A stretch of 64,000 nucleotides of DNA from a virus (IMGVR_UViG_2974607751_000001:35533-99532); one strand, 5' to 3'; counted from the stretch's first letter, positions 3,095-37,809 are shown. Program-made: numbers and translations. The notes: a model not told the origin generated them from the letters alone.

Positions 3095-3862
3095 TTATTC
3101 AGCAGCCGCAGCTTTTGCATCCAGTTTAGCACGCTTAGCGGCACCATCATAGTCCTTAGCAACCAGACCACGACGAGACAGCATAGATTTAACACCGCGC
3201 TCAGACTTACCAGTTTTCTCAGCGATCTCAGCAACAGTCATGTTAGCCAGATCCAGACCTTCTAACAGATCTTCACGAGTTTTAGCACTTGAAGTTTCCT
3301 GTACCGGCATAGCAGCGATACGACCTTCACGAAGCAGGCTCAGAGCTTTACCACGGATCTGCTTAATATTGCGACCGAAGTGAGCAGCGATAGCTTCAAT
3401 AGTAGCACCAGCAACAACCTGATTAACGAAATCAGTTTCTTCGTCAGGAGTGAAGGAACGAACAGCAGCAGCTTTTTCAGTTGGCTTAACAGAAGCGGTC
3501 ATTTCCAGACTCAGGATCTTACCTTGTACCTGCTTAGCACCGAACTGACCACCAGCTACAGCAGCAGCGATTTCAGCGTAAGTATACTGACCAGCATGAG
3601 CGTTCAGGAAATCAACTAGTTCAGCTTCCTGCTCAGGAGTCCACGGGGATTTCTGTACTTCGTTAGCTTTCTGTACTTCGAAACCTTCTTTACGCAGCTT
3701 AGAGCCAACAGAGCGAGCGGTAACGTCTTTACCAGTCTCGGTAGCCAGTTCAGCAGCGATAGCAGCTACTTGTTCTTGAGAGATTACAGCAACACCCAGA
3801 GCAGTGGCTTTTGCTTTCAGAGACTCGGTTACACCTTCTACGTTCCAGTTCAGTTTAGACAT
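3095..3862 (-). CDS. Protein with four ~45-aa HTH-like internal repeats (putative DNA-binding); host-like codon usage
   Basis: The repeat xxEIAxxxGKxxRxVxSKLRKEG occurs four times. GC content is about 50%, well above flanking genes. Confidence 0.5.
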   Translation of the reverse strand: MSKLNWNVEGVTESLKAKATALGVAVISQEQVAAIAAELATETGKDVTARSVGSKLRKEGFEVQKANEVQKSPWTPEQEAELVDFLNAHAGQYTYAEIAAAVAGGQFGAKQVQGKILSLEMTASVKPTEKAAAVRSFTPDEETDFVNQVVAGATIEAIAAHFGRNIKQIRGKALSLLREGRIAAMPVQETSSAKTREDLLEGLDLANMTVAEIAEKTGKSERGVKSMLSRRGLVAKDYDGAAKRAKLDAKAAAAE

Positions 3863-4637
3863 TATTATTTTTCTCCAATAGTTCTTTAATCGACAGGATT
3901 TCTATCCCATTCGTTTCGGCTTTCTTATAAGATGAGGAAGAACGTTTTGATTCATCCTCACAGATTAGGTATTTAACGTCTTTGGTAACGGACTTCTTAA
4001 CCGTATATCCTAGACTTTCTAAATAGTTTGTTGCATCCGTTCGATTTGCAAAATCTTGCAAAGATCCGGTAATACAGACCGTGATTCCATTTGGCTGGGC
4101 AACTAAATCATCTGTAATGATGATATCAGCTTTAGCACCTCGAATACCGGTTGAGAATTTCCACGGTAATTCAATAACATCCTTGCCTTGTGGGGAGTTT
4201 AGCCAGGTTTTGTAATTTTCTCCAGCCTTGCCGTCAGCCTTCACATCGTGGAAGCTAGTGCAATTTTGGGACAGTTTCTTTGCTGCAACCTCTCCAATAA
4301 GAGGAATTCCTAAAGAACCGAGAACTGAACCAAAGTCAATGTCTCCGCGAACCTTAGTATTTAACTCGCTAATCAACTTAGCGGCAACCTTGCTACCCAC
4401 AGCTCCGACCAAATCTTCTTCGGTCAGGTAAAACAGTTCTGAGATCTTAGTCAGCTCCAGCTTCTCAATAGTTTTCGGGCCAAAGCCCTTTAACTTCATT
4501 TTTGTGCAGAAGTTCTCGATTAACTTACTTGATTGCGCTGGACAGTTGGACTTATTCCTACAGAATAATTGCCCGTTGACAAGATCTAGCTTAGAACCAC
4601 AAGAGGGACATTGTGTTGGAATTTCGATTTTCATCAA
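3855..4637 (-). CDS. ligB: NAD-dependent DNA ligase subunit B (Zn-finger, HhH, BRCT part)
   Basis: A C4 zinc finger CPSCGS...CRNKSNCPAQ is followed by a helix-hairpin-helix region and a BRCT-like C-terminus. It has its own promoter and RBS (AGGAAGAAAtttgATG). Confidence 0.8.
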   Translation of the reverse strand: MMKIEIPTQCPSCGSKLDLVNGQLFCRNKSNCPAQSSKLIENFCTKMKLKGFGPKTIEKLELTKISELFYLTEEDLVGAVGSKVAAKLISELNTKVRGDIDFGSVLGSLGIPLIGEVAAKKLSQNCTSFHDVKADGKAGENYKTWLNSPQGKDVIELPWKFSTGIRGAKADIIITDDLVAQPNGITVCITGSLQDFANRTDATNYLESLGYTVKKSVTKDVKYLICEDESKRSSSSYKKAETNGIEILSIKELLEKNNNV

Positions 4638-4664
4638 ATTTCTTCCTTATCAATTTATATAAAT

Positions 4665-4693
4665 ATTATAGCAAGTATTTAAGCATTTAGCAA
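4665..4693 (-). promoter_or_regulatory. T5-type early sigma70 promoter (TTGCTA-17-TATAAT) inside the split ligase, driving ligB
   Basis: Reverse complement reads ttgTTGCTAaatgcttaaatacttgcTATAATatttatataaattgataaggaag. Confidence 0.6.
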
Positions 4694-4836
4694 CTACAAT
4701 TTTAACTAACTTTGCTTACCCTCGCCATAACTTTCTATCCCTCAACTGAATGATAATAGTATATACCTAAGCGGCGAAAATGTCAATAACCACTTTATAA
4801 TTCCGACATGGTAAACGGGTAGCAAAGGGTTACTAA

Positions 4837-5808
4837 TTAGTCGTATACTCGCTCCACTATACAAGGGATTACACCACCAGCACGAATCACTCGAATCTGG
4901 CAACCGATCTCTAAATCGAGAGCGTTAATATAATCAACGTTATTAAGAGTTGCTTTAACGATTGTGGCATCATCAATAATCACCGGTTCGAAATAACCAA
5001 CTGGAGTTACTTTACCAGAAGCCCCTACTTGCCATTCAACTTTAACAAGAGTGGTAATTTCGCCTTCTTCATCCTCTTTAATAGCAAACGCACCACGAGG
5101 AAATTTATTAGTCCAACCTTCACGGAAGAATTTATTGTTGTCATTAATACGAACAACTTTACCGTCCGTCGGAATCCACTTAAAGAAGGAACGAACATTA
5201 ACAACTGTTAAGAAGTTCTCATTCTCTAGCCAAAGCATATCTTTTAAATAGGCTTCTGTAATACCGACCGTTTCCGCTGAACACTGGATACCATATGCAA
5301 CGAAGATTAAACCGCCTTCACCAATACGTTGCATGAAATCATCACTATCTTTCAGGTTAATAGCACCGGAAGCATAGTTACGTTTGTTCTCTACTTCTTT
5401 AGTAATGAGAACTTCCCCAGTGATTTGAGTTGGTACTTTTTGGGAAATAGTTTTAGGAATGTTCAGCATTTTAACATTATGCGTTACATCATTTCCTAGA
5501 ATACCGTTACCCCGAGTTAATGCTTGAACAAATTCACCATTAATATATAATAGAGAAATCGCACAACCATCTAACTTATCAGTTTCAACCTGACCAAGTG
5601 GATTGAACGGAGCTTTATCACCACGACCGTAATAGACTTTCTGTAAAGAATACATACGATACAAATGAGGGATATCACCTTTCGGTCCGATTTCTTCCTC
5701 TAGTGGGAATCTTTTAGTCAGACGATCATATTCTTCATCGGAAATAAGACTCATTCCCTGGTAGTACGCTTCTTGACAACGTTTGATAAAGTCTTTTACA
5801 TTATTCAT
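4837..5808 (-). CDS. ligA: NAD-dependent DNA ligase subunit A (adenylation + OB domains)
   Basis: KLDGCA is the KxDG adenylation motif. An Ia-like N-terminus DEEYDRL is present. Confidence 0.8.
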   Translation of the reverse strand: MNNVKDFIKRCQEAYYQGMSLISDEEYDRLTKRFPLEEEIGPKGDIPHLYRMYSLQKVYYGRGDKAPFNPLGQVETDKLDGCAISLLYINGEFVQALTRGNGILGNDVTHNVKMLNIPKTISQKVPTQITGEVLITKEVENKRNYASGAINLKDSDDFMQRIGEGGLIFVAYGIQCSAETVGITEAYLKDMLWLENENFLTVVNVRSFFKWIPTDGKVVRINDNNKFFREGWTNKFPRGAFAIKEDEEGEITTLVKVEWQVGASGKVTPVGYFEPVIIDDATIVKATLNNVDYINALDLEIGCQIRVIRAGGVIPCIVERVYD

Positions 5809-12793: not shown

Positions 12794-13333
12794 TTACACC
12801 TTGAGTTTCTGAAGAGCCTTACACATTTCAAGATCTGGACTAAACTCCAGCATATAGCTGATAGCATTTAAATCTTGAAGGTTTATTCCAGTCCTGCCAT
12901 TTACAATAACAGTAGGGAATTGGTACATCATCGCACCAGCATCGTCTAAGACGCACCAATGCTTGAGCTTATGTTTTTCTACGAAACGTAAAACAGAATT
13001 ACCACGAGATAAACCGCCTCCAGTAAAATCTGTTGTACCAAGAAAACGATCGATCAAACCAAGACTGGTCATAATCTGAACGTTCTCCATTTCATTTTTC
13101 ACAGAAAACCACGAGGATACCCCAACAATCATTATTGGGGAGGGTTTAAGGAAGTTCTGAAAAGCCTGGAGTAATGGCTTATAAACCCAATCACTGCCAA
13201 AGAACAGCTTTTCATTATTCGGAGCATGATGGTGAGAGATGCTCGAATTGAGCACCCCATCAATATCCAGGAAAATCACAGGAGTATTACTTATTTCCAC
13301 CAGTAGCATCCCACGTCCAGACTTTAACTTCAT
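12794..13333 (-). CDS. HAD-superfamily phosphatase
   Basis: FLDIDGVLN is HAD motif I (DxDG). Confidence 0.55.
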   Translation of the reverse strand: MKLKSGRGMLLVEISNTPVIFLDIDGVLNSSISHHHAPNNEKLFFGSDWVYKPLLQAFQNFLKPSPIMIVGVSSWFSVKNEMENVQIMTSLGLIDRFLGTTDFTGGGLSRGNSVLRFVEKHKLKHWCVLDDAGAMMYQFPTVIVNGRTGINLQDLNAISYMLEFSPDLEMCKALQKLKV

Positions 13334-13472: not shown

Positions 13473-13684
13473 TCGTTCTCCTCTAGGAACACCTTATGTT
13501 CCGGGGTGTCGATATAGATTACACAGAAATCATCTGACATATAATCCATTTCCCACAACTCTTCACGATAGCACCATGTTTTATCTGGCCATACAATTAT
13601 ATCATCAGGGTGTCTTTTAGGTGATTTGTAAAATCGGGGGTCTGATCCCATATCTCCCATTTTACCCTTATTAGGATGCGACAT
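13469..13684 (-). CDS. hypothetical small protein
   Basis: Short ORF packed tightly between neighbours. Confidence 0.35.
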   Translation of the reverse strand: MSHPNKGKMGDMGSDPRFYKSPKRHPDDIIVWPDKTWCYREELWEMDYMSDDFCVIYIDTPEHKVFLEENE

Positions 13685-14513
13685 AAATAGTTCCTTCCAT
13701 AAAGGCTTCTACTTGACCAATGAAGTGTTTGTTACCAAAAACTTCGGCAGCCCCAGCACGCCATACAGTAACACCACGTTTCTCATACTCAAGCTGTTCG
13801 TCATAACGAACTTGTGGGTTAACAACCATCATCTTAGTTCCACGACATACAGCAGGAAATAGCTCCCAGTTGAAGTCGATTACTTGGTTGCTACAACCTA
13901 CTACAATAACCATATCATTGCTAGTAAGTGTATCAAACAGGTTAATCTGACCCATATACCACGGAGCCGTCTCACCAAAGAATGTTACGTTTGGTTTGAC
14001 CCATTCGTAATCTTCAGGGGCAATCGCAGTATACCCAACATCTTCGATGATTTGGTTGCGACCCTGACGATAGATCACCTCTTTCAAGTACCCGTGAGCG
14101 TGAATGATTTCATCACGAGGGATACCAGCACGTTCCAGAAGGTCATCAACGTTAGTAGTGAAGTTCTTCACGCTATCCGCACCATAACGCTGGAACCATT
14201 CTGCAACTCGCATATGGGCAATGTTAGGCTCAACAGTCTGTAATTCCTGACGACGCATATTGTAGAACTCATGAGTCTTGAGATACAGATCGTTACCATC
14301 TTCATCAATGCCAGGGAAACGAGCACTGAAGTAGTTAGGATCATCTTCACCACAGAAGCGACGGAAGCCAGCTTCAAAGTTAGGCAAGCTACATACTTCC
14401 TCTAGATCGTACTCATCCCACAAGGATTTCCCACTAGCAGTATCAGTACGGAAAGCACGAACACCACTATCTACACTCAAACCTGCACCACTAACAACGA
14501 TTAGTCTACGCAT
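13671..14513 (-). CDS. Sir2/sirtuin-family NAD-dependent protein
   Basis: VVSGAGLSVDSGVRAFR matches GAGIS.ESGIP.FR. Motifs NVDDL..HG, VVGCS and VNP follow the sirtuin order. Confidence 0.7.
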   Translation of the reverse strand: MRRLIVVSGAGLSVDSGVRAFRTDTASGKSLWDEYDLEEVCSLPNFEAGFRRFCGEDDPNYFSARFPGIDEDGNDLYLKTHEFYNMRRQELQTVEPNIAHMRVAEWFQRYGADSVKNFTTNVDDLLERAGIPRDEIIHAHGYLKEVIYRQGRNQIIEDVGYTAIAPEDYEWVKPNVTFFGETAPWYMGQINLFDTLTSNDMVIVVGCSNQVIDFNWELFPAVCRGTKMMVVNPQVRYDEQLEYEKRGVTVWRAGAAEVFGNKHFIGQVEAFMEGTIYVAS

Positions 14514-33295: not shown

Positions 33296-34336
33296 TTAAG
33301 CCGGCAGTTTAGCCTGCAGACCAGCTAGAGCTTGAGTGATAGAACCCAGGCTTACAGCGATTTGGTTGATTACCTGACCGTTAGCACCGCTACCCTGAGC
33401 GATTGCTTCACGAAGACGGCATTCGTCTAATTCATCTTGAATACGCGCAGTAGTTACACCAGCGATTGCAGTCTGAAGTTCACAGCAACATTCAGCGATC
33501 TGACGTTCCAGAGCGTTCTGGTTAGCGCACGCCTGTGCAGCTACAGCAGCGAACTGGTTGTTAGTCTGAATAGTCTGCTGGAAAGCAATCTGAGCAGCAT
33601 CAAACTTGTCTTGAGCACGAGCGATCTGGTTAGCCGCGAAGGACTGATCGATCTGGAGAGACAGGTCAAACTGTCCAGCTAATACGCTACGAGTTTCGGA
33701 ACAAATCTGGTTGGACAGGTTAGCACCAGTACCATACAGAGAAGTCAGAACCTGTTGAGTGCTAGCAGCTTGAGCAGCACCTACACCGTTAACAGCGCTC
33801 AGTACAGCACCAGTTCCCTGGTTTGCTTCAGTACGAGTAGTGTTGATTGCAGCTAGAATACTGGAGGTATTCTGATTACTTAGAACAGTTTCCACACCTG
33901 TTAGCTCCGCAGCAGCGCCAGCAGCACCGCGACCGAAACCACCGAAACCACCAAATCCGCCTGTTAATAGAGCACCGATTAGGATAGCTCCGAATAGACC
34001 CATACCTTCTCCACCGAAAGCACCTGCGTTAGCTGGGAATGCACCCATGCCAGGAAAGCCGTTAGTGAATACGTTTACTGGTTCTTGCATTTTTCTTTCT
34101 CCATATTTGTGATAACCATGATGTTCATGTTCATCTTCTTCTTCGTCGTCTTCATCATCTTCCTCATAGTGTTCATGATGGTGATGGTGATGATGATAAT
34201 GATGCTCGTCAGCTCGCTCTTGAGCTTTAAGCTTTTCCCACTTTTTCTTGTCTGATTCTTCGTGACGATGCAGTTCTGCTGCTACTTCACTTAGAGATTC
34301 AGGTTTCTTAGCTACTTCTTCTGTCATTTTTGACAC
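33296..34336 (-). CDS. His-rich/acidic N-terminus, Gly-rich TM-like middle, Ala/Gln-rich Cys-containing C-terminal protein
   Basis: Segments HHYHHHHHHHEHYEEDDEDDEEEDEHEHH, GGFGGFGGFGRG and ECCCEL are present. Confidence 0.5.
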   Translation of the reverse strand: MSKMTEEVAKKPESLSEVAAELHRHEESDKKKWEKLKAQERADEHHYHHHHHHHEHYEEDDEDDEEEDEHEHHGYHKYGERKMQEPVNVFTNGFPGMGAFPANAGAFGGEGMGLFGAILIGALLTGGFGGFGGFGRGAAGAAAELTGVETVLSNQNTSSILAAINTTRTEANQGTGAVLSAVNGVGAAQAASTQQVLTSLYGTGANLSNQICSETRSVLAGQFDLSLQIDQSFAANQIARAQDKFDAAQIAFQQTIQTNNQFAAVAAQACANQNALERQIAECCCELQTAIAGVTTARIQDELDECRLREAIAQGSGANGQVINQIAVSLGSITQALAGLQAKLPA

Positions 34337-34599
34337 CTCCTAGTATATAGAAAATGTGTGTCTCTTTGATCACTCATCCATAACATATACTTTACACTAC
34401 CCCAGCGAAAATGTCAAGGGGTCTTTAAAAATTGCCCCCGGATTTTTAGTGGGGGTACAAAATCTCTGGGTACTCTCTAAAGTGCCCTCGAATTGTGCTC
34501 CTAATATTTGCTTTCCTGTACTTTTAAAATTAAGTTGATAAATTATGTACTCTATAATATAATAAGTTTATGTATTTTTAAAAGACTATGGAGATACTT

Positions 34600-34833
34600 A
34601 TGATAAAATTCAAAGATCTTGTATTTAAGGATTTAAAGCATGACATAGATGCAATACGTTGTATCCCGTGCTGGGGACAAGGTACTGTTCCTACTTCAAC
34701 GGAAGATAATGTTATTTTAAAATCAGATCCATGCCCTTTCTGTGGAGGATCTGGTATTAATCATCATTACGAAGTAAAACATACAGAAACTATTCATGGT
34801 ACTAAAGTATTTATTATTACTAAAATCAAATAA
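34600..34833 (+). CDS. DnaJ-CR-like zinc-finger mini-protein
   Basis: CIPCWGQG...CPFCGGSG is two CxxCxGxG repeats. Confidence 0.45.
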   Translation: MIKFKDLVFKDLKHDIDAIRCIPCWGQGTVPTSTEDNVILKSDPCPFCGGSGINHHYEVKHTETIHGTKVFIITKIK

Positions 34834-34846
34834 ATTAAAAATTCAA

Positions 34847-34875
34847 TTGCTTAGACGCCAAAATCTCTGTATAAT
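34847..34875 (+). promoter_or_regulatory. PN25-type early promoter
   Basis: Sequence is TTGCTTagacgccaaaatctctgTATAAT, followed by ataaatttgagagaggaatcaaatATG. Confidence 0.55.
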
Positions 34876-34905
34876 ATATTTATAAATTTGAGAGAGGAAT
34901 CAAAT

Positions 34906-35961
34906 ATGATTAAGACTGGTCTAGTAATTGGTAAGTTCGCACCATTAACGCGTGGCCATATTAACTTAATTAACACAGCAGCAACTATGTGTGAACGAGT
35001 TATTGTTGTAGTTAGTCATGATAATCGCTGGCTGGATAAGCAAAACACACGTGATCAGGAAGTCTTACAATTAAAGAACCGTTTACGTTGGTTAGAACAA
35101 ACCTATGCTGATATCGAACATGTATCAGTAGAATATATTATAGAAGATGATATTCCTGAGTATCCTAATGGTTGGCCAGAATATGCTAGAATACTGAATG
35201 ATAATTATGGCCATTTGCCTGAAATTACCATTTTCTCTAGCGAACTAGACTATGATGCAGAATATAAGAAATATCTGCCGAAGTTCGGACATTATATTGT
35301 AGACTCTGATCGGACTCGTGTTCCAATCTCAGCTACTATGATTCGTAATGATCTTATGAAGTATTGGGAATTTCTTCCTAGCGTAGTTCGTAAAGACTAT
35401 GTGCGTAAGGTTGTTATCATTGGTACGGAAAGCTCCGGCAAAACAACTTTAACAAAGTACCTTGCGAAATTATATAATACTTCGTGGGTAGAAGAATATG
35501 GACGTACTTACTGTGAAGTTGATCTAGTTGGTAATGAAGAACTCCTGACTAGCGAGGACTATAATAAAATTGCATTCAGGCACAAAGAGCTAGAGTTTGA
35601 AGCAGAACGTACTGCAAATAAGATCATGTTTGTGGATACCAATGCTTTCATTACTGAATTCTATCACAGGCTCTATGAACATCGTAAAAATCCGGTTGTA
35701 ACAGCTATTGCTAAAGAAGAGCATTATGATTTAGTTATAGTTTTAGCACCTACTGTTAAGTGGGTAGATGATGGTTTACGTATTAACTCCGATCGTTCAA
35801 TTACTTCTGAACTGTTCGAGCAGATGAAGAAAGAATTTCCTAATCAGTTCCCAGAAGGGCGTACTGTGTATATTGACTCCCCGGACTATAAAGTTCGTAT
35901 GGACGAAGCAGTAAACGCAGTAGATTGGCTGATTCATCACTTTAACGTTGGAGAGTTTTAA
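34906..35961 (+). CDS. nadR: NadR-type bifunctional NMN adenylyltransferase / ribosylnicotinamide kinase (lacks the HTH repressor domain)
   Basis: Segments align with E. coli NadR. GKFAPLTRGH matches GKFYPLHTGH. RLRWLEQTY and EYPNGWPEY are shared. Walker A is GTESSGKTTL. The C-terminal block is HYDLVIVLAPTVKWVDDGLR. Confidence 0.85.
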   Translation: MIKTGLVIGKFAPLTRGHINLINTAATMCERVIVVVSHDNRWLDKQNTRDQEVLQLKNRLRWLEQTYADIEHVSVEYIIEDDIPEYPNGWPEYARILNDNYGHLPEITIFSSELDYDAEYKKYLPKFGHYIVDSDRTRVPISATMIRNDLMKYWEFLPSVVRKDYVRKVVIIGTESSGKTTLTKYLAKLYNTSWVEEYGRTYCEVDLVGNEELLTSEDYNKIAFRHKELEFEAERTANKIMFVDTNAFITEFYHRLYEHRKNPVVTAIAKEEHYDLVIVLAPTVKWVDDGLRINSDRSITSELFEQMKKEFPNQFPEGRTVYIDSPDYKVRMDEAVNAVDWLIHHFNVGEF

Positions 35962-35962
35962 T

Positions 35963-36640
35963 ATGACTAACTATCTTGTAAATGACTTTAAAAACTGGAA
36001 ATCTTTGGAATATTTGTGGCTGTTCATAGCAGTTGCCTTTATTAGCTTAGCAAATTATAACGGTACAGCTCTAGACTGGGCTACCGCAATAACCAACGTG
36101 GTTTGTGTTATTCTGGTTGCAAAAGGGCGTGTTTCCAACTATATTTGGGGCTTAGTTGGTGTTCTTACCTATGGTATTACAGCTTTAAATGCAGATCTTT
36201 ATGGTAACGCTGCACTAAACCTGCTATACTACGTTCCTATGCAGTTTTATGGTATGTATTTATGGCATAAAAATAAGCCAAGTAATCTGCCAGACGTTCC
36301 GACTAAGATTCTGACTAAAGCCCAAGCTTTGTTGACTCTAGGGGTTCTAGCAGTAGCTACTTTAGGTTACGGCAGCTTCCTTGCTACCACAGCTGATCCA
36401 TTCCCAATGCTTGACGCATTTACTGCGGTTGGTAGTGTGATTGCTATGTGGCTTATGGTTAAGCAATATGCTGAACAATGGCTGATCTGGATTGCTATTA
36501 ACATTGGTACTGTGTACATTTGGCTTGTAACTGCTCAATCTACAGGTGCATCTTACGCAATCCTAGCAATGTGGCTAGTATTCTTAGGTAACTCTATTCT
36601 TGGAGCTTATAAAGGATACTTTGTACGCGTTAACAAATAA
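35963..36640 (+). CDS. pnuC: PnuC nicotinamide riboside transporter
   Basis: A ~225-aa polytopic membrane protein with NY.WG...V..Y and a W-rich pattern like PnuC. It overlaps the nadR stop codon. Confidence 0.7.
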   Translation: MTNYLVNDFKNWKSLEYLWLFIAVAFISLANYNGTALDWATAITNVVCVILVAKGRVSNYIWGLVGVLTYGITALNADLYGNAALNLLYYVPMQFYGMYLWHKNKPSNLPDVPTKILTKAQALLTLGVLAVATLGYGSFLATTADPFPMLDAFTAVGSVIAMWLMVKQYAEQWLIWIAINIGTVYIWLVTAQSTGASYAILAMWLVFLGNSILGAYKGYFVRVNK

Positions 36641-36687
36641 AGTAGTTATAGCCCTCTAAGCGAGGGCTATTATACAGAAATTTTCAC

Positions 36688-36716
36688 TTGCTTAATATAG
36701 AAAATTTCTGTATAAT
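36688..36716 (+). promoter_or_regulatory. PN25-type early promoter
   Basis: Sequence is TTGCTTaatatagaaaatttctgTATAAT. The leader is identical to the 34.87 kb copy over about 35 nt. Confidence 0.55.
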
Positions 36717-36746
36717 ATATTTATAAATTTGAGAGAGGAATCAAAC

Positions 36747-37043
36747 ATGAAACGCATCGTACTTGCATTGACTCTAGTATCTACTTCTGTATTTGCTGCT
36801 CCACAACAGGAACTTTGTCAAGTTCAAGTTTGTAATAAGCTAGAACGATTTACTCTAGACATTTGGTCACACATTAAAGATAATATGGGTGAACAGTGTT
36901 TTGATATTGTTCTGCCAAAAGAACAAGCTGTTCCTGGTGCTGTTCTCAGCTCAGAATCACGTTGGTGGCAGGGTTCTTCTATCAATCCAACTAAGAAGTC
37001 AGTGACACGTATCAAACAAGTATATCAGTGCAATGTTCAGTAA
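36747..37043 (+). CDS. Secreted small protein (signal peptide)
   Basis: The signal peptide is MKRIVLALTLVSTSVFA-APQ. Confidence 0.5.
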   Translation: MKRIVLALTLVSTSVFAAPQQELCQVQVCNKLERFTLDIWSHIKDNMGEQCFDIVLPKEQAVPGAVLSSESRWWQGSSINPTKKSVTRIKQVYQCNVQ

Positions 37044-37051
37044 AATTTCAC

Positions 37052-37080
37052 TTGCTTAATGCCGAAATTTTCTGTATAAT
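37052..37080 (+). promoter_or_regulatory. PN25-type early promoter driving tRNA genes
   Basis: TTGCTTaatgccgaaattttctgTATAAT is followed directly by two tRNAs. Confidence 0.55.
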
Positions 37081-37094
37081 ATATTCATAAATTT

Positions 37095-37188
37095 GGAAGA
37101 TTAACCCTAAAGGTAAGGGAGCTGTTTGCTAAACAGCCAGTAGCTGTGGAGACACGGTGTGCCAGTTCGAGTCTGGCATCTTCCTCCA
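37095..37188 (+). tRNA. tRNA-Ser (GCT), type II
   Basis: Acceptor ggaagat/atcttcc. Anticodon loop tgctaaa. Long variable arm. CCA is encoded. Confidence 0.6.
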
Positions 37189-37193
37189 AATTT

Positions 37194-37271
37194 GGTTCTC
37201 AAGCTCATTTGGTATGAGCCGTCGCCTCATAAGCGAAAGGTAGGTAGGTTCGAATCCTCCGGGAGCCACCA
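37194..37271 (+). tRNA. tRNA with CAT anticodon (Met/fMet/Ile2), copy 1
   Basis: Acceptor ggttctc/gggagcc with G-U pairs. Anticodon loop ctcataa. Confidence 0.5.
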
Positions 37272-37288
37272 ATTAACTAGGAGACTAT

Positions 37289-37477
37289 ATGTCTAAGTTT
37301 CGAGAGCTTAAACAAGAACTAGAAGAACTCGCCTGCCCTCATTGTTTTGGAAGAGGCGAGAAAGATGATGCAGAACCTGGAGATATATTTTGTAGAACAT
37401 GGACTTGTCCAGTCTGCGAGGGTACTGGGATTAATCCTCTTTATACTGTTTCTCTTTTTGTAGGAGTTGCTAAGTAA
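37289..37477 (+). CDS. DnaJ-CR-like zinc-finger mini-protein (paralog of 34600)
   Basis: The motif is CPHCFGRG...CPVCEGTG. Confidence 0.45.
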   Translation: MSKFRELKQELEELACPHCFGRGEKDDAEPGDIFCRTWTCPVCEGTGINPLYTVSLFVGVAK

Positions 37478-37809
37478 TGGATATCTATACTACTCCAGCA
37501 GTAAACCTGATTGGCTCTTGCCTTGTGCATTTCCGCTTCTTCCAGACGGATGATAGCAAAGAGGAAGTTACACATCCTCTGATGGATTTTCAGATCGAGG
37601 ACTTCTTCCGTGAAGTTCGTAATATTTCTGAAAACTTCTACTACGGTATGGATAAGGAAGATTTCGACATTGAATTTCCTACAATCTCTCGTTATTTCCT
37701 AGAGCAGTCTGATGCTCGGTTTGAGAAGATTGAACATATGGAAGTAGTTTGGGCAATTCAGTTTGAAATTACTGGTTTTGCTCGATACATTCAAGGCTAC
37801 GAACTCTAA
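37477..37809 (+). CDS. hypothetical protein
   Basis: Translationally coupled to the upstream ORF (ATG overlaps its stop). Confidence 0.45.
   Translation: MDIYTTPAVNLIGSCLVHFRFFQTDDSKEEVTHPLMDFQIEDFFREVRNISENFYYGMDKEDFDIEFPTISRYFLEQSDARFEKIEHMEVVWAIQFEITGFARYIQGYEL

What the first reader, a model, noticed from the sequence alone, without database searches (positions are those of the whole stretch)
34906..36640. Phage-encoded NAD+ salvage pair nadR (NMNAT + NR kinase, no HTH) and pnuC, with Sir2-like and NAD-ligase genes elsewhere in the window
The 352-aa ORF aligns block by block with E. coli NadR from the NMN adenylyltransferase HxGH motif through the ribosylnicotinamide kinase P-loop, but lacks the N-terminal repressor domain. 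The next ORF, overlapping its stop codon, is a PnuC-type NR transporter. Together they can import nicotinamide riboside and convert it to NMN and then NAD+. The same phage carries an NAD-consuming ligase (ligA/ligB, 3855-5808) and a sirtuin-fold protein (13671-14513). NAD+ depletion is the effector mechanism of Thoeris, DSR, SIR2-HerA and other abortive-infection defenses. Phage NAD+-reconstitution pathways (NARP1/NARP2) were only recently recognised, and a PnuC-NadR route would be a third, import-based solution. These genes may already be annotated in T5-like genomes, but their role as counter-defense or NAD homeostasis appears unexplored.
Basis: partly seen in the sequence, partly recalled or inferred. 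Interest (0 to 1): 0.65.

Follow-up and report, generated by a model that had tools for sequence, protein, structure and literature searches.

The report
Phage NAD-rebuilding gene pair, already published
This T5-like Salmonella phage carries a two-gene cassette that imports nicotinamide riboside and turns it into NAD+, but near-identical genes were published in August 2026 as the anti-defence pathway "NARP3", so the finding is correct and no longer new.

Summary
Window 34906-35961 encodes a 351-aa NadR-type enzyme (NMN adenylyltransferase plus ribosylnicotinamide kinase, no HTH). Window 35963-36640 encodes a 225-aa PnuC transporter. The window is Salmonella phage STG2 (Epseptimavirus, T5-like), where both genes are already annotated.

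The two proteins are 98.6% and 97.8% identical to Bas30_86 and Bas30_87 of phage TrudiRoth. Those proteins were crystallised (PDB 9X6H/9X6F), shown to import NR and convert it NR -> NMN -> NAD+, and shown to restore NAD+ and rescue T7 and lambda from Sir2-HerA, with NAD+ also restored against DSR1. That work named the pathway NARP3 (Sci Adv, 12 Aug 2026). Osterman et al. had already proposed the idea in 2024. Every residue the paper mutated is conserved here.

Small corrections:
- The protein is 351 aa, not 352.
- The motif is TRGH, not HxGH.
- pnuC starts one base after the nadR stop, so there is no overlap.

What I added:
- The cassette sits behind a copy of T5 early promoter P15a.
- T5 itself lacks the cassette yet has the Sir2 and LigA/LigB genes, so those genes are not specifically tied to it.
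- A conserved secreted 98-aa protein lies next to nadR-pnuC in three phage lineages. Its function is unknown.

The parts
34837..34905 (+). Early promoter and leader of the cassette. It has -35 TTGCTT (34847-34852), a 17-nt spacer, -10 TATAAT (34870-34875) and Shine-Dalgarno GAGAGAGGA (34890-34898).
   Evidence: Read from the sequence. The block aligns almost base for base with the annotated T5 promoter P15a and closely with P-N25. The 39-nt core recurs exactly at 36707-36745, with 0 matches expected by chance, and a third copy lies at 37042-37114. The block is conserved in TrudiRoth.
34906..35961 (+). nadR-like gene encoding a 351-aa bifunctional NMN adenylyltransferase plus ribosylnicotinamide kinase with no HTH domain. 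It is the orthologue of Bas30_86.
   Evidence: Domain and family matches are. PDB 9X6F/9X6H matches at E 6.5e-239. It is 346/351 identical to Bas30_86. The TRGH motif, the Walker A GTESSGKT (173-180) and all 17 residues named in the paper's structure and mutagenesis work are conserved.
35963..36640 (+). pnuC encoding a 225-aa nicotinamide riboside transporter, the orthologue of Bas30_87. Its own SD GGAGAG (35950-35955) lies inside the 3' end of nadR.
   Evidence: Family and structure matches are. It is 220/225 identical to Bas30_87. The NR-binding residues N45, Q94 and N180 are conserved at the same numbering.
36648..36670 (+). Terminator-like hairpin closing the two-gene unit. It has a 9-bp stem with six G-C pairs and a 5-nt loop, followed by a weak U tract.
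   Evidence: RNA fold gives -17.1 kcal/mol with z = -3.85. In TrudiRoth the stem is identical and the loop differs. A terminator feature lies under the match in phages Stitch and Sw2. The simple consensus scan did not flag it.
36678..37043 (+). Neighbouring unit that may or may not belong to the cassette. It consists of a second copy of the promoter and leader followed by orf98 (36747-37043). orf98 encodes a secreted 98-aa protein with four invariant Cys (PHROG 6894, function unknown).
   Evidence: It lies next to nadR(-pnuC) in T5-like, GAP32/Eneladusvirus-like jumbo and Vequintavirinae phages. It is absent near nadR-pnuC in ICP1, KpSz_1 and Aeromonas phage 1233, and it occurs alone in other phages. 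There is no Pfam match and no fold match.
13671..14513 (-). Context only: a phage Sir2-family protein of CobB-like sirtuin type. It has no CxxC zinc module.
   Evidence: Pfam SIR2 3.6e-21. The best solved match is E. coli CobB 1S5P. It has no PADLOC defence-Sir2 match. It is 51% identical to T5.102. The GAGLSVDSGVRAFR, TNVDD and HAHG motifs were read from the sequence.
3855..5808 (-). Context only: a split NAD-dependent DNA ligase. The LigA part is 4837-5808 and the LigB part is 3855-4637.
   Evidence: Pfam DNA_ligase_aden, DNA_ligase_OB, BRCT and HHH. The parts are 96-97% identical to T5 ligA and ligB.

Best explanation
The pair is the phage STG2 copy of NARP3, a two-gene early-expressed cassette. 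PnuC sits in the inner membrane and lets nicotinamide riboside (NR) from the medium into the infected cell. The HTH-less NadR traps NR by phosphorylating it to NMN with its C-terminal P-loop kinase. Its N-terminal nucleotidyltransferase then adenylates NMN to NAD+. Because it lacks the repressor domain and is driven by a strong T5-type early promoter, the pathway runs constitutively from early infection. This refills the NAD+ pool when NADase defence systems (Sir2-HerA, DSR1) empty it, so the phage can complete replication.

Shown here:
- Gene identity and domain content.
- Near-identity to the characterised proteins.
- Conservation of all functionally tested residues.
- The operon layout.

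Shown by others, on proteins 98-99% identical:
- NR binding and transport.
- NR -> NMN -> NAD+ catalysis.
- Crystal structures.
- Rescue of T7 and lambda in E. coli.

Inferred:
- Early transcription from the P15a-like promoter.
- That counter-defence is the selective role in the native phage.
For: - The window is phage STG2, and the genes are annotated as NMNAT/RNK and PnuC.
- Solved homologues include Bas30_86, PDB 9X6F/9X6H.
- The proteins are 98.6% and 97.8% identical to Bas30_86 and Bas30_87.
- All mutated or ligand-contacting residues are conserved: K10, F11, S37, E80, P84, G89, F110, S112, D115, V139, I141, K163, D164, R167, K168, E230 and D275 in NadR, and N45, Q94 and N180 in PnuC.
- The published biochemistry, structures and defence assays are in PMC13464706. 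The earlier hypothesis is in Osterman et al..
- The promoter is identical in design to T5 P15a and P-N25, and a conserved hairpin follows pnuC.
- NadR and PnuC are kept adjacent in every lineage checked. These are T5-like, KpSz_1, ICP1, Aeromonas 1233 and GAP32-like phages. In Vequintavirinae they lie 1.5-1.9 kb apart.
- 205 phage records carry NadR at >=90% identity and 205 carry PnuC at >=95% identity.
Against: - Nothing in the sequence argues against the biochemical function.
- The counter-defence role has only been shown by plasmid expression in E. coli challenged with T7 and lambda. The authors state they could not test it in the native phage.
- NARP3 needs exogenous NR, because it cannot recycle the ADPR and nicotinamide that NADases produce. 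Its benefit therefore depends on the environment.
- The hosts already have their own pnuC and nadR.
- T5, a close relative, does without the cassette.
Confidence: 0.88

Rival explanations
1. The cassette is mainly a housekeeping auxiliary metabolic module. It would raise NAD+ for the phage's own NAD-consuming enzymes (split NAD-dependent ligase, Sir2-type protein) and for general metabolism after host shut-off. Protection from NADase defences would be a side benefit.
For: - The phage encodes an NAD-dependent ligase and a CobB-like Sir2.
- PHROGs files both cassette genes under 'moron, auxiliary metabolic gene and host takeover'.
- The native-context defence phenotype is untested.
- Expression is from a general early promoter.
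Against: - T5 has the same ligase and a Sir2 homologue but no nadR or pnuC. The phage's own NAD users therefore do not require the cassette.
- The heterologous pair gives about 10^3-10^4-fold rescue against Sir2-HerA and restores NAD+ against DSR1.
- This explanation is not mutually exclusive with the main one.
Confidence: 0.25
2. In T5-like phages the functional unit has three genes. The secreted 4-Cys protein orf98 (36747-37043) would act in the periplasm as an accessory to NR uptake, or would protect the pathway.
For: - orf98 has its own exact copy of the nadR promoter and leader.
- It lies within about 1 kb of nadR in three unrelated lineages, with different gene orders.
- Between those lineages it is more conserved (53-66% identity) than NadR and PnuC (34-40%).
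- T5 lacks all three genes together.
Against: - Two genes suffice in E. coli.
- orf98 is absent near nadR-pnuC in ICP1, KpSz_1 and Aeromonas phage 1233.
- It occurs without nadR or pnuC within 6-10 kb in Aeromonas T4-like phages, Pseudomonas OBP, Grimontviridae and several metagenomic phages.
- It has no domain or fold match that would suggest a mechanism.
Confidence: 0.1
3. The genes are decayed or repurposed. Examples would be NadR acting as a regulator, or PnuC carrying another substrate.
For: The TIGR01526 score (272 bits) is below its strict equivalog cut-off of 341. The first motif residue is T rather than H.
Against: - There is no HTH with which to regulate.
- The reading frames are intact, and 205 phage records carry NadR at >=90% and PnuC at >=95% identity.
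- The same TRGH sequence is present in the active, crystallised Bas30_86.
- All catalytic and NR-binding residues are kept.
Confidence: 0.02

Closest known systems
NARP3 (Bas30_86/Bas30_87 of Escherichia phage TrudiRoth; Yan et al., Sci Adv 2026, PMC13464706; PDB 9X6H, 9X6F)
   Same: - Same genus (Epseptimavirus).
- Same promoter, same gene order and the same 1-nt junction.
- Same downstream hairpin and same following orf98.
- Proteins 98.6% and 97.8% identical, with all tested residues conserved.
   Different: - Five amino-acid substitutions in each protein, none at a tested site.
- The upstream neighbourhood differs. STG2 has two reverse-strand genes and an 81-aa zinc-finger ORF between the lipoprotein gene and the cassette.
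Bacterial NadR plus PnuC (E. coli, Salmonella, Haemophilus influenzae; PDB 1LW7, 8X7F, 4QTN)
   Same: - Same NMNAT-RNK two-domain enzyme and same PnuC fold.
- Same NR -> NMN -> NAD+ chemistry with trapping by phosphorylation.
- The sequences align end to end.
   Different: - There is no N-terminal HTH repressor domain (model positions 1-64 are missing).
- The genes are fused into one operon, whereas E. coli pnuC and nadR are at separate loci.
- The motif is TRGH instead of HTGH.
- The match to the solved bacterial NadR and PnuC proteins is distant (E 4e-55, 1.7e-51 and 9e-33).
NARP1 and NARP2 (Osterman et al. 2024) and the KVP40 NadV/NatV salvage pathway
   Same: They are phage-encoded two-enzyme routes that rebuild NAD+ during infection and blunt NADase defences.
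   Different: - NARP1 recycles ADPR plus nicotinamide.
- NARP2 uses Nampt plus NMNAT, starting from nicotinamide and PRPP.
- NARP3 needs an imported precursor (NR) and includes a transporter.

Membership tests
NARP3 (phage NadR-like + PnuC-like NAD+ reconstitution cassette) | A NadR-type enzyme with NMNAT and RNK domains and no HTH domain | tested here: met
   Pfam CTP_transf_like plus AAA_28. NF005988 matches model positions 65-407 of 411. 98.6% identical to Bas30_86.
NARP3 (phage NadR-like + PnuC-like NAD+ reconstitution cassette) | A PnuC-type NR transporter encoded directly downstream in the same transcription unit | tested here: met
   PF04973 at 4e-43 and TIGR01528 at 120 bits. There is a 1-nt gap between the genes. 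97.8% identical to Bas30_87.
NARP3 (phage NadR-like + PnuC-like NAD+ reconstitution cassette) | Residues shown by mutagenesis to be needed for NR binding, catalysis and phage rescue | tested here: met
   All 17 NadR residues and 3 PnuC residues named in the paper are present at the same positions.
NARP3 (phage NadR-like + PnuC-like NAD+ reconstitution cassette) | Encoded by a phage | tested here: met
   The window is 100% identical to Salmonella phage STG2, NC_048089.
NARP3 (phage NadR-like + PnuC-like NAD+ reconstitution cassette) | NR uptake and NR -> NMN -> NAD+ activity, with restoration of NAD+ and phage plating on NADase-defence hosts | not testable with these tools
   This was shown for the TrudiRoth orthologues by heterologous expression. 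It has not been shown for the STG2 proteins or in any native phage.
Trifunctional bacterial NadR (NCBIfam NF005988) | An N-terminal helix-turn-helix repressor domain | tested here: not met
   The protein starts at model position 65, and residue 3 already aligns to the NMNAT domain.
Trifunctional bacterial NadR (NCBIfam NF005988) | (H/T)xGH nucleotidyltransferase motif and RNK Walker A P-loop | tested here: met
   T15-R-G-H18 and G173-TESSGKT180. The protein aligns with 1LW7 and 8X7F.
PnuC transporter family (TIGR01528 / PF04973) | A whole-protein score above the curated cut-offs and an end-to-end match to a solved PnuC | tested here: met
   120.4 bits against a cut-off of 42.45, and 147.7 bits against 27.3. 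4QTN matches residues 9-215 at 9e-33.
NARP1 / NARP2 | Adps + Namat (NARP1) or Nampt + NMNAT (NARP2) enzyme pairs | not tested
   The cassette contains neither pair. The rest of the window and genome was not scanned for them.

The most novel reading that the evidence does not exclude
In T5-like, GAP32-like jumbo and Vequintavirinae phages the cassette may have a conserved third partner, the secreted four-cysteine protein orf98 (PHROG 6894). This protein would work in the periplasm to supply or protect the NR route. Separately, in the native phage the cassette's main job may be NAD+ homeostasis for phage enzymes rather than counter-defence. Neither point is addressed in the NARP3 paper, which tested only two genes on plasmids.
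Probability: 0.12. Interest if true: 0.4.

Novelty: already known. Interest (0 to 1): 0.1.

Why it matters
NAD+ depletion is a common bacterial way of aborting phage infection, and phage pathways that rebuild NAD+ decide which phages escape it. This cassette is a third such pathway that depends on import. However, it has already been described biochemically, structurally and functionally for a 98-99% identical gene pair. The window therefore adds only one more member.

What remains open:
- Whether the cassette matters in a native T5-like infection.
- How its benefit depends on NR in the environment.
- Whether the neighbouring secreted protein has any part in the pathway.

Tried and rejected
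- I looked for a riboswitch or other known RNA, such as the pnuC/NAD+-II motif, around the cassette. Rfam at E<=1 on 34300-37500 found only the two downstream tRNAs.
- I asked whether the phage Sir2 resembles defence-type NADase SIR2 domains. It has no PADLOC match, and its best solved relative is the deacylase CobB.
- I tested the idea that Sir2, the ligase and the cassette form a co-inherited NAD set. I rejected it because T5 has Sir2 and LigA/LigB but no nadR, pnuC or orf98 (motif scan; whole-genome tblastn and HMM).
- I tried to assign a function to orf98:
  - Pfam finds nothing, and PHROGs lists it as unknown.
  - It has 75 homologue clusters, none with a name or domain.
  - The AlphaFold model has mean pLDDT 76.6.
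- The generic promoter scanner did not score the true promoter well, because its -35 is TTGCTT. Alignment to annotated T5 promoters was needed instead.
- The generic terminator scan missed the hairpin after pnuC, so I folded it separately.

Full report
**What is there**

The window is 100% identical to Salmonella phage STG2 (NC_048089/MK005300; Demerecviridae, Markadamsvirinae, Epseptimavirus), a T5-like phage. nadR is 34906-35961 (+) and encodes 351 aa. pnuC is 35963-36640 (+) and encodes 225 aa. RefSeq already annotates them as "nicotinamide-nucleotide adenylyltransferase" and "PnuC-like nicotinamide mononucleotide transport". GenBank calls them "ribosylnicotinamide kinase" and "PnuC-like ribosyl nicotinamide transporter".

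**Identity of the proteins**

- The first protein has a cytidylyltransferase-like domain (res 7-147) and a P-loop AAA_28 kinase domain (res 168-314).
- It passes the NCBIfam model for trifunctional NadR (254 bits, cut-off 201). It matches only model positions 65-407 of 411, so the N-terminal HTH repressor domain is missing.
- It aligns end to end with the solved NadR proteins 1LW7 and 8X7F.
- Its nucleotidyltransferase motif reads TRGH, the T variant of (H/T)xGH. Its Walker A is GTESSGKT.
- The second protein is a clear PnuC: Pfam 4e-43, TIGR01528 at 120 bits against a cut-off of 42, and PDB 4QTN at 9e-33.
- The genes abut. The nadR TAA ends at 35961 and the pnuC ATG starts at 35963, with a GGAGAG Shine-Dalgarno at 35950-35955.

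**It is already known**

A literature search found two relevant papers.

- Osterman et al. 2024 state that phage NadR genes usually sit in an operon with PnuC. They say this "would form yet another pathway" for NAD+ reconstitution, which they did not examine.
- Yan et al., Sci Adv, 12 Aug 2026 (PMC13464706), name this pair NARP3. They used Bas30_86/Bas30_87 of the BASEL phage TrudiRoth.

Yan et al. report the following:

- Bas30_87 is a trimeric NR transporter with a Kd of about 0.66 uM. The N45A, Q94A and N180A mutants lose NR binding.
- Bas30_86 converts NR to NMN and then to NAD+ in vitro.
- Crystal structures were solved, 9X6H (apo) and 9X6F (NAD+ complex).
- Co-expression of both genes restores NAD+ and raises T7 and lambda plating about 10^3-10^4-fold on E. 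coli carrying Sir2-HerA. It also restores NAD+ and substantially counteracts DSR1. Neither gene works alone.

I fetched TrudiRoth. The STG2 proteins are 346/351 and 220/225 identical to Bas30_86 and Bas30_87, without gaps. PDB 9X6F is the top structural hit at E 6.5e-239. Every residue the paper names as ligand-contacting or mutated is present at the same position. The DNA alignment shows the same promoter, the same junction, the same downstream hairpin and the same following ORF. This is therefore a member of a published, experimentally characterised system.

**Anatomy added here**

- A 73-nt block upstream of nadR (34837-34909) carries -35 TTGCTT, a 17-nt spacer, -10 TATAAT and the leader GAGAGAGGAATCAAATATG.
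- This block is repeated before the next ORF (36678-36750) and, in diverged form, before tRNA-Ser (37042-114).
- Aligned with promoters annotated in the T5 reference genome, it is almost identical to P15a and very close to P-N25. From general knowledge, T5 promoters of this type are strong early E. coli RNA polymerase promoters. I therefore infer early, constitutive expression, but I did not show it.
- A stable hairpin (36648-36670; -17.1 kcal/mol, z = -3.9) follows pnuC. TrudiRoth keeps the stem and has a different loop.
- No riboswitch or other Rfam family is present.
- The cassette lies at the edge of the tRNA cluster.

**Comparison with T5**

- At the syntenic position in T5, promoter P15a drives T5.076, a 172-aa primase-like TOPRIM protein, instead of nadR-pnuC.
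- Whole-genome tblastn and HMM searches of T5 find no NadR, PnuC or orf98.
- T5 does have the Sir2 protein (T5.102, 51% identical) and the split NAD-dependent ligase LigA/LigB (96-97% identical).
However, they are core Markadamsvirinae genes, while the cassette is an accessory cargo in a swappable promoter slot. This weakens the idea that the three form a specific NAD set.
- The Sir2 is CobB-like, with GAGxS, N/D and HG motifs present. It has no CxxC zinc module and no match to defence-type SIR2 models.

**Distribution**

- NadR homologues occur in 792 phage records and PnuC homologues in 447.
- 205 records carry NadR at >=90% identity and 205 carry PnuC at >=95% identity. The listed rows at these identities are T5-like phages, mostly of Salmonella.
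- NadR and PnuC are adjacent in ICP1, Serratia phage KpSz_1, Aeromonas phage 1233 and GAP32-like jumbo phages. In Vequintavirinae they are 1.5-1.9 kb apart.

**Side observation: orf98**

- The ORF after pnuC (36747-37043) encodes a 98-aa protein with a signal peptide, four invariant cysteines and a conserved SRW(Y/W)QGSSINPTKKSVTR motif. It belongs to PHROG 6894, which has no assigned function.
- It lies next to nadR in three unrelated lineages, with different gene orders:
  - T5-like phages: nadR-pnuC-orf98.
  - GAP32/Eneladusvirus-like jumbo phages, including Xanthomonas phage XbC2: orf98-(0-1 small ORF)-nadR-pnuC.
  - Vequintavirinae: orf98-small secreted ORF-nadR...pnuC.
- Between those lineages it is more conserved (53-66% identity) than NadR and PnuC (34-40%).
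- It is missing near nadR-pnuC in ICP1, KpSz_1 and Aeromonas phage 1233.
- It also occurs without NadR or PnuC within 6-10 kb in Aeromonas T4-like phages, Pseudomonas OBP, Grimontviridae and metagenomic phages.
- The NARP3 paper does not mention it, and two genes suffice in E. coli.
- A structure model with mean pLDDT 76.6 gave no fold match.
- I rate a functional link as possible but weakly supported.

**Mechanism and confidence**

- Best explanation (0.88): this is an NARP3 cassette. PnuC admits NR. The NadR kinase domain traps it as NMN, and the NMNAT domain makes NAD+. Expression is unregulated from an early promoter, and the cassette buffers NAD+ against NADase defences.
- The biochemistry rests on published work with 98-99% identical proteins.
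- The native-phage role is inferred. The authors state it is untested.
- The main rival is general NAD+ provisioning for phage enzymes (0.25, not exclusive).

**Verdict**

The novelty rating is "already known", and interest is low (0.1). The residual novelty lies only in native-context tests and the orf98 linkage.

Noticed in passing
window 36747-37043 (+); also L006 7001-7315, L007 10001-10315, L031 6001-6306: orf98 encodes a secreted 98-aa protein with four invariant Cys and the motif SRW(Y/W)QGSSINPTKKSVTR (PHROG 6894; no Pfam, name or fold match). It lies next to nadR(-pnuC) in T5-like, GAP32-like jumbo and Vequintavirinae phages. It is absent from other NadR-PnuC phages and also occurs alone elsewhere.
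   Followed up: partly
window 34837-34909, 36678-36750, 37042-37114 (+): There are three copies of one promoter/leader block (TTGCTT-17-TATAAT plus GAGAGAGGAATCAAA). They nearly match the annotated T5 promoters P15a, P15b and P-N25. In T5 the P15a slot drives a primase-like TOPRIM gene (T5.076) instead of nadR-pnuC, which suggests a cargo-swapping slot.
   Followed up: partly
window 33296-34336 (-): This 346-aa protein has a histidine run (HHYHHHHHHHEH), an acidic stretch, a Gly-rich hydrophobic segment and a Q/A-rich C-terminal half with a CCC motif. It is 80% identical to T5.077, which has a much shorter His region. It has no Pfam match.
   Followed up: no
window 34588-34833 (+) and 37289-37477 (+): Two small proteins (81 and 62 aa) carry CxxC...CxxCxGxG zinc-finger motifs of DnaJ/anti-TRAP type. 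PHROG labels the 81-aa one 'anti-termination protein Q-like'. They flank the cassette region. Among the matching phages listed, only STG2 has the 81-aa ORF at this position.
   Followed up: no
window 13671-14513 (-) and 12794-13333 (-): The phage Sir2 is CobB-like and lacks the CxxC zinc module. About 340 bases downstream on the same strand is a protein with a HAD_SAK_2 domain (the HAD domain of 'Swiss Army Knife' RNA-repair proteins). T5 has a Sir2 homologue (51% identical).
   Followed up: partly
window 3855-5808 (-): The NAD-dependent DNA ligase is split into two ORFs about 200 bp apart, one with adenylation + OB and one with HhH + BRCT. This is the same arrangement as T5 ligA/ligB, where the spacer holds promoters P-K28a/b.
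   Followed up: no
L007 10300-10587 (Klebsiella Mydovirus phage): A second small secreted protein (95 aa, with a signal peptide) sits between the orf98 homologue and nadR in the Klebsiella Mydovirus phage examined (Vequintavirinae). Its function is unknown.
   Followed up: no
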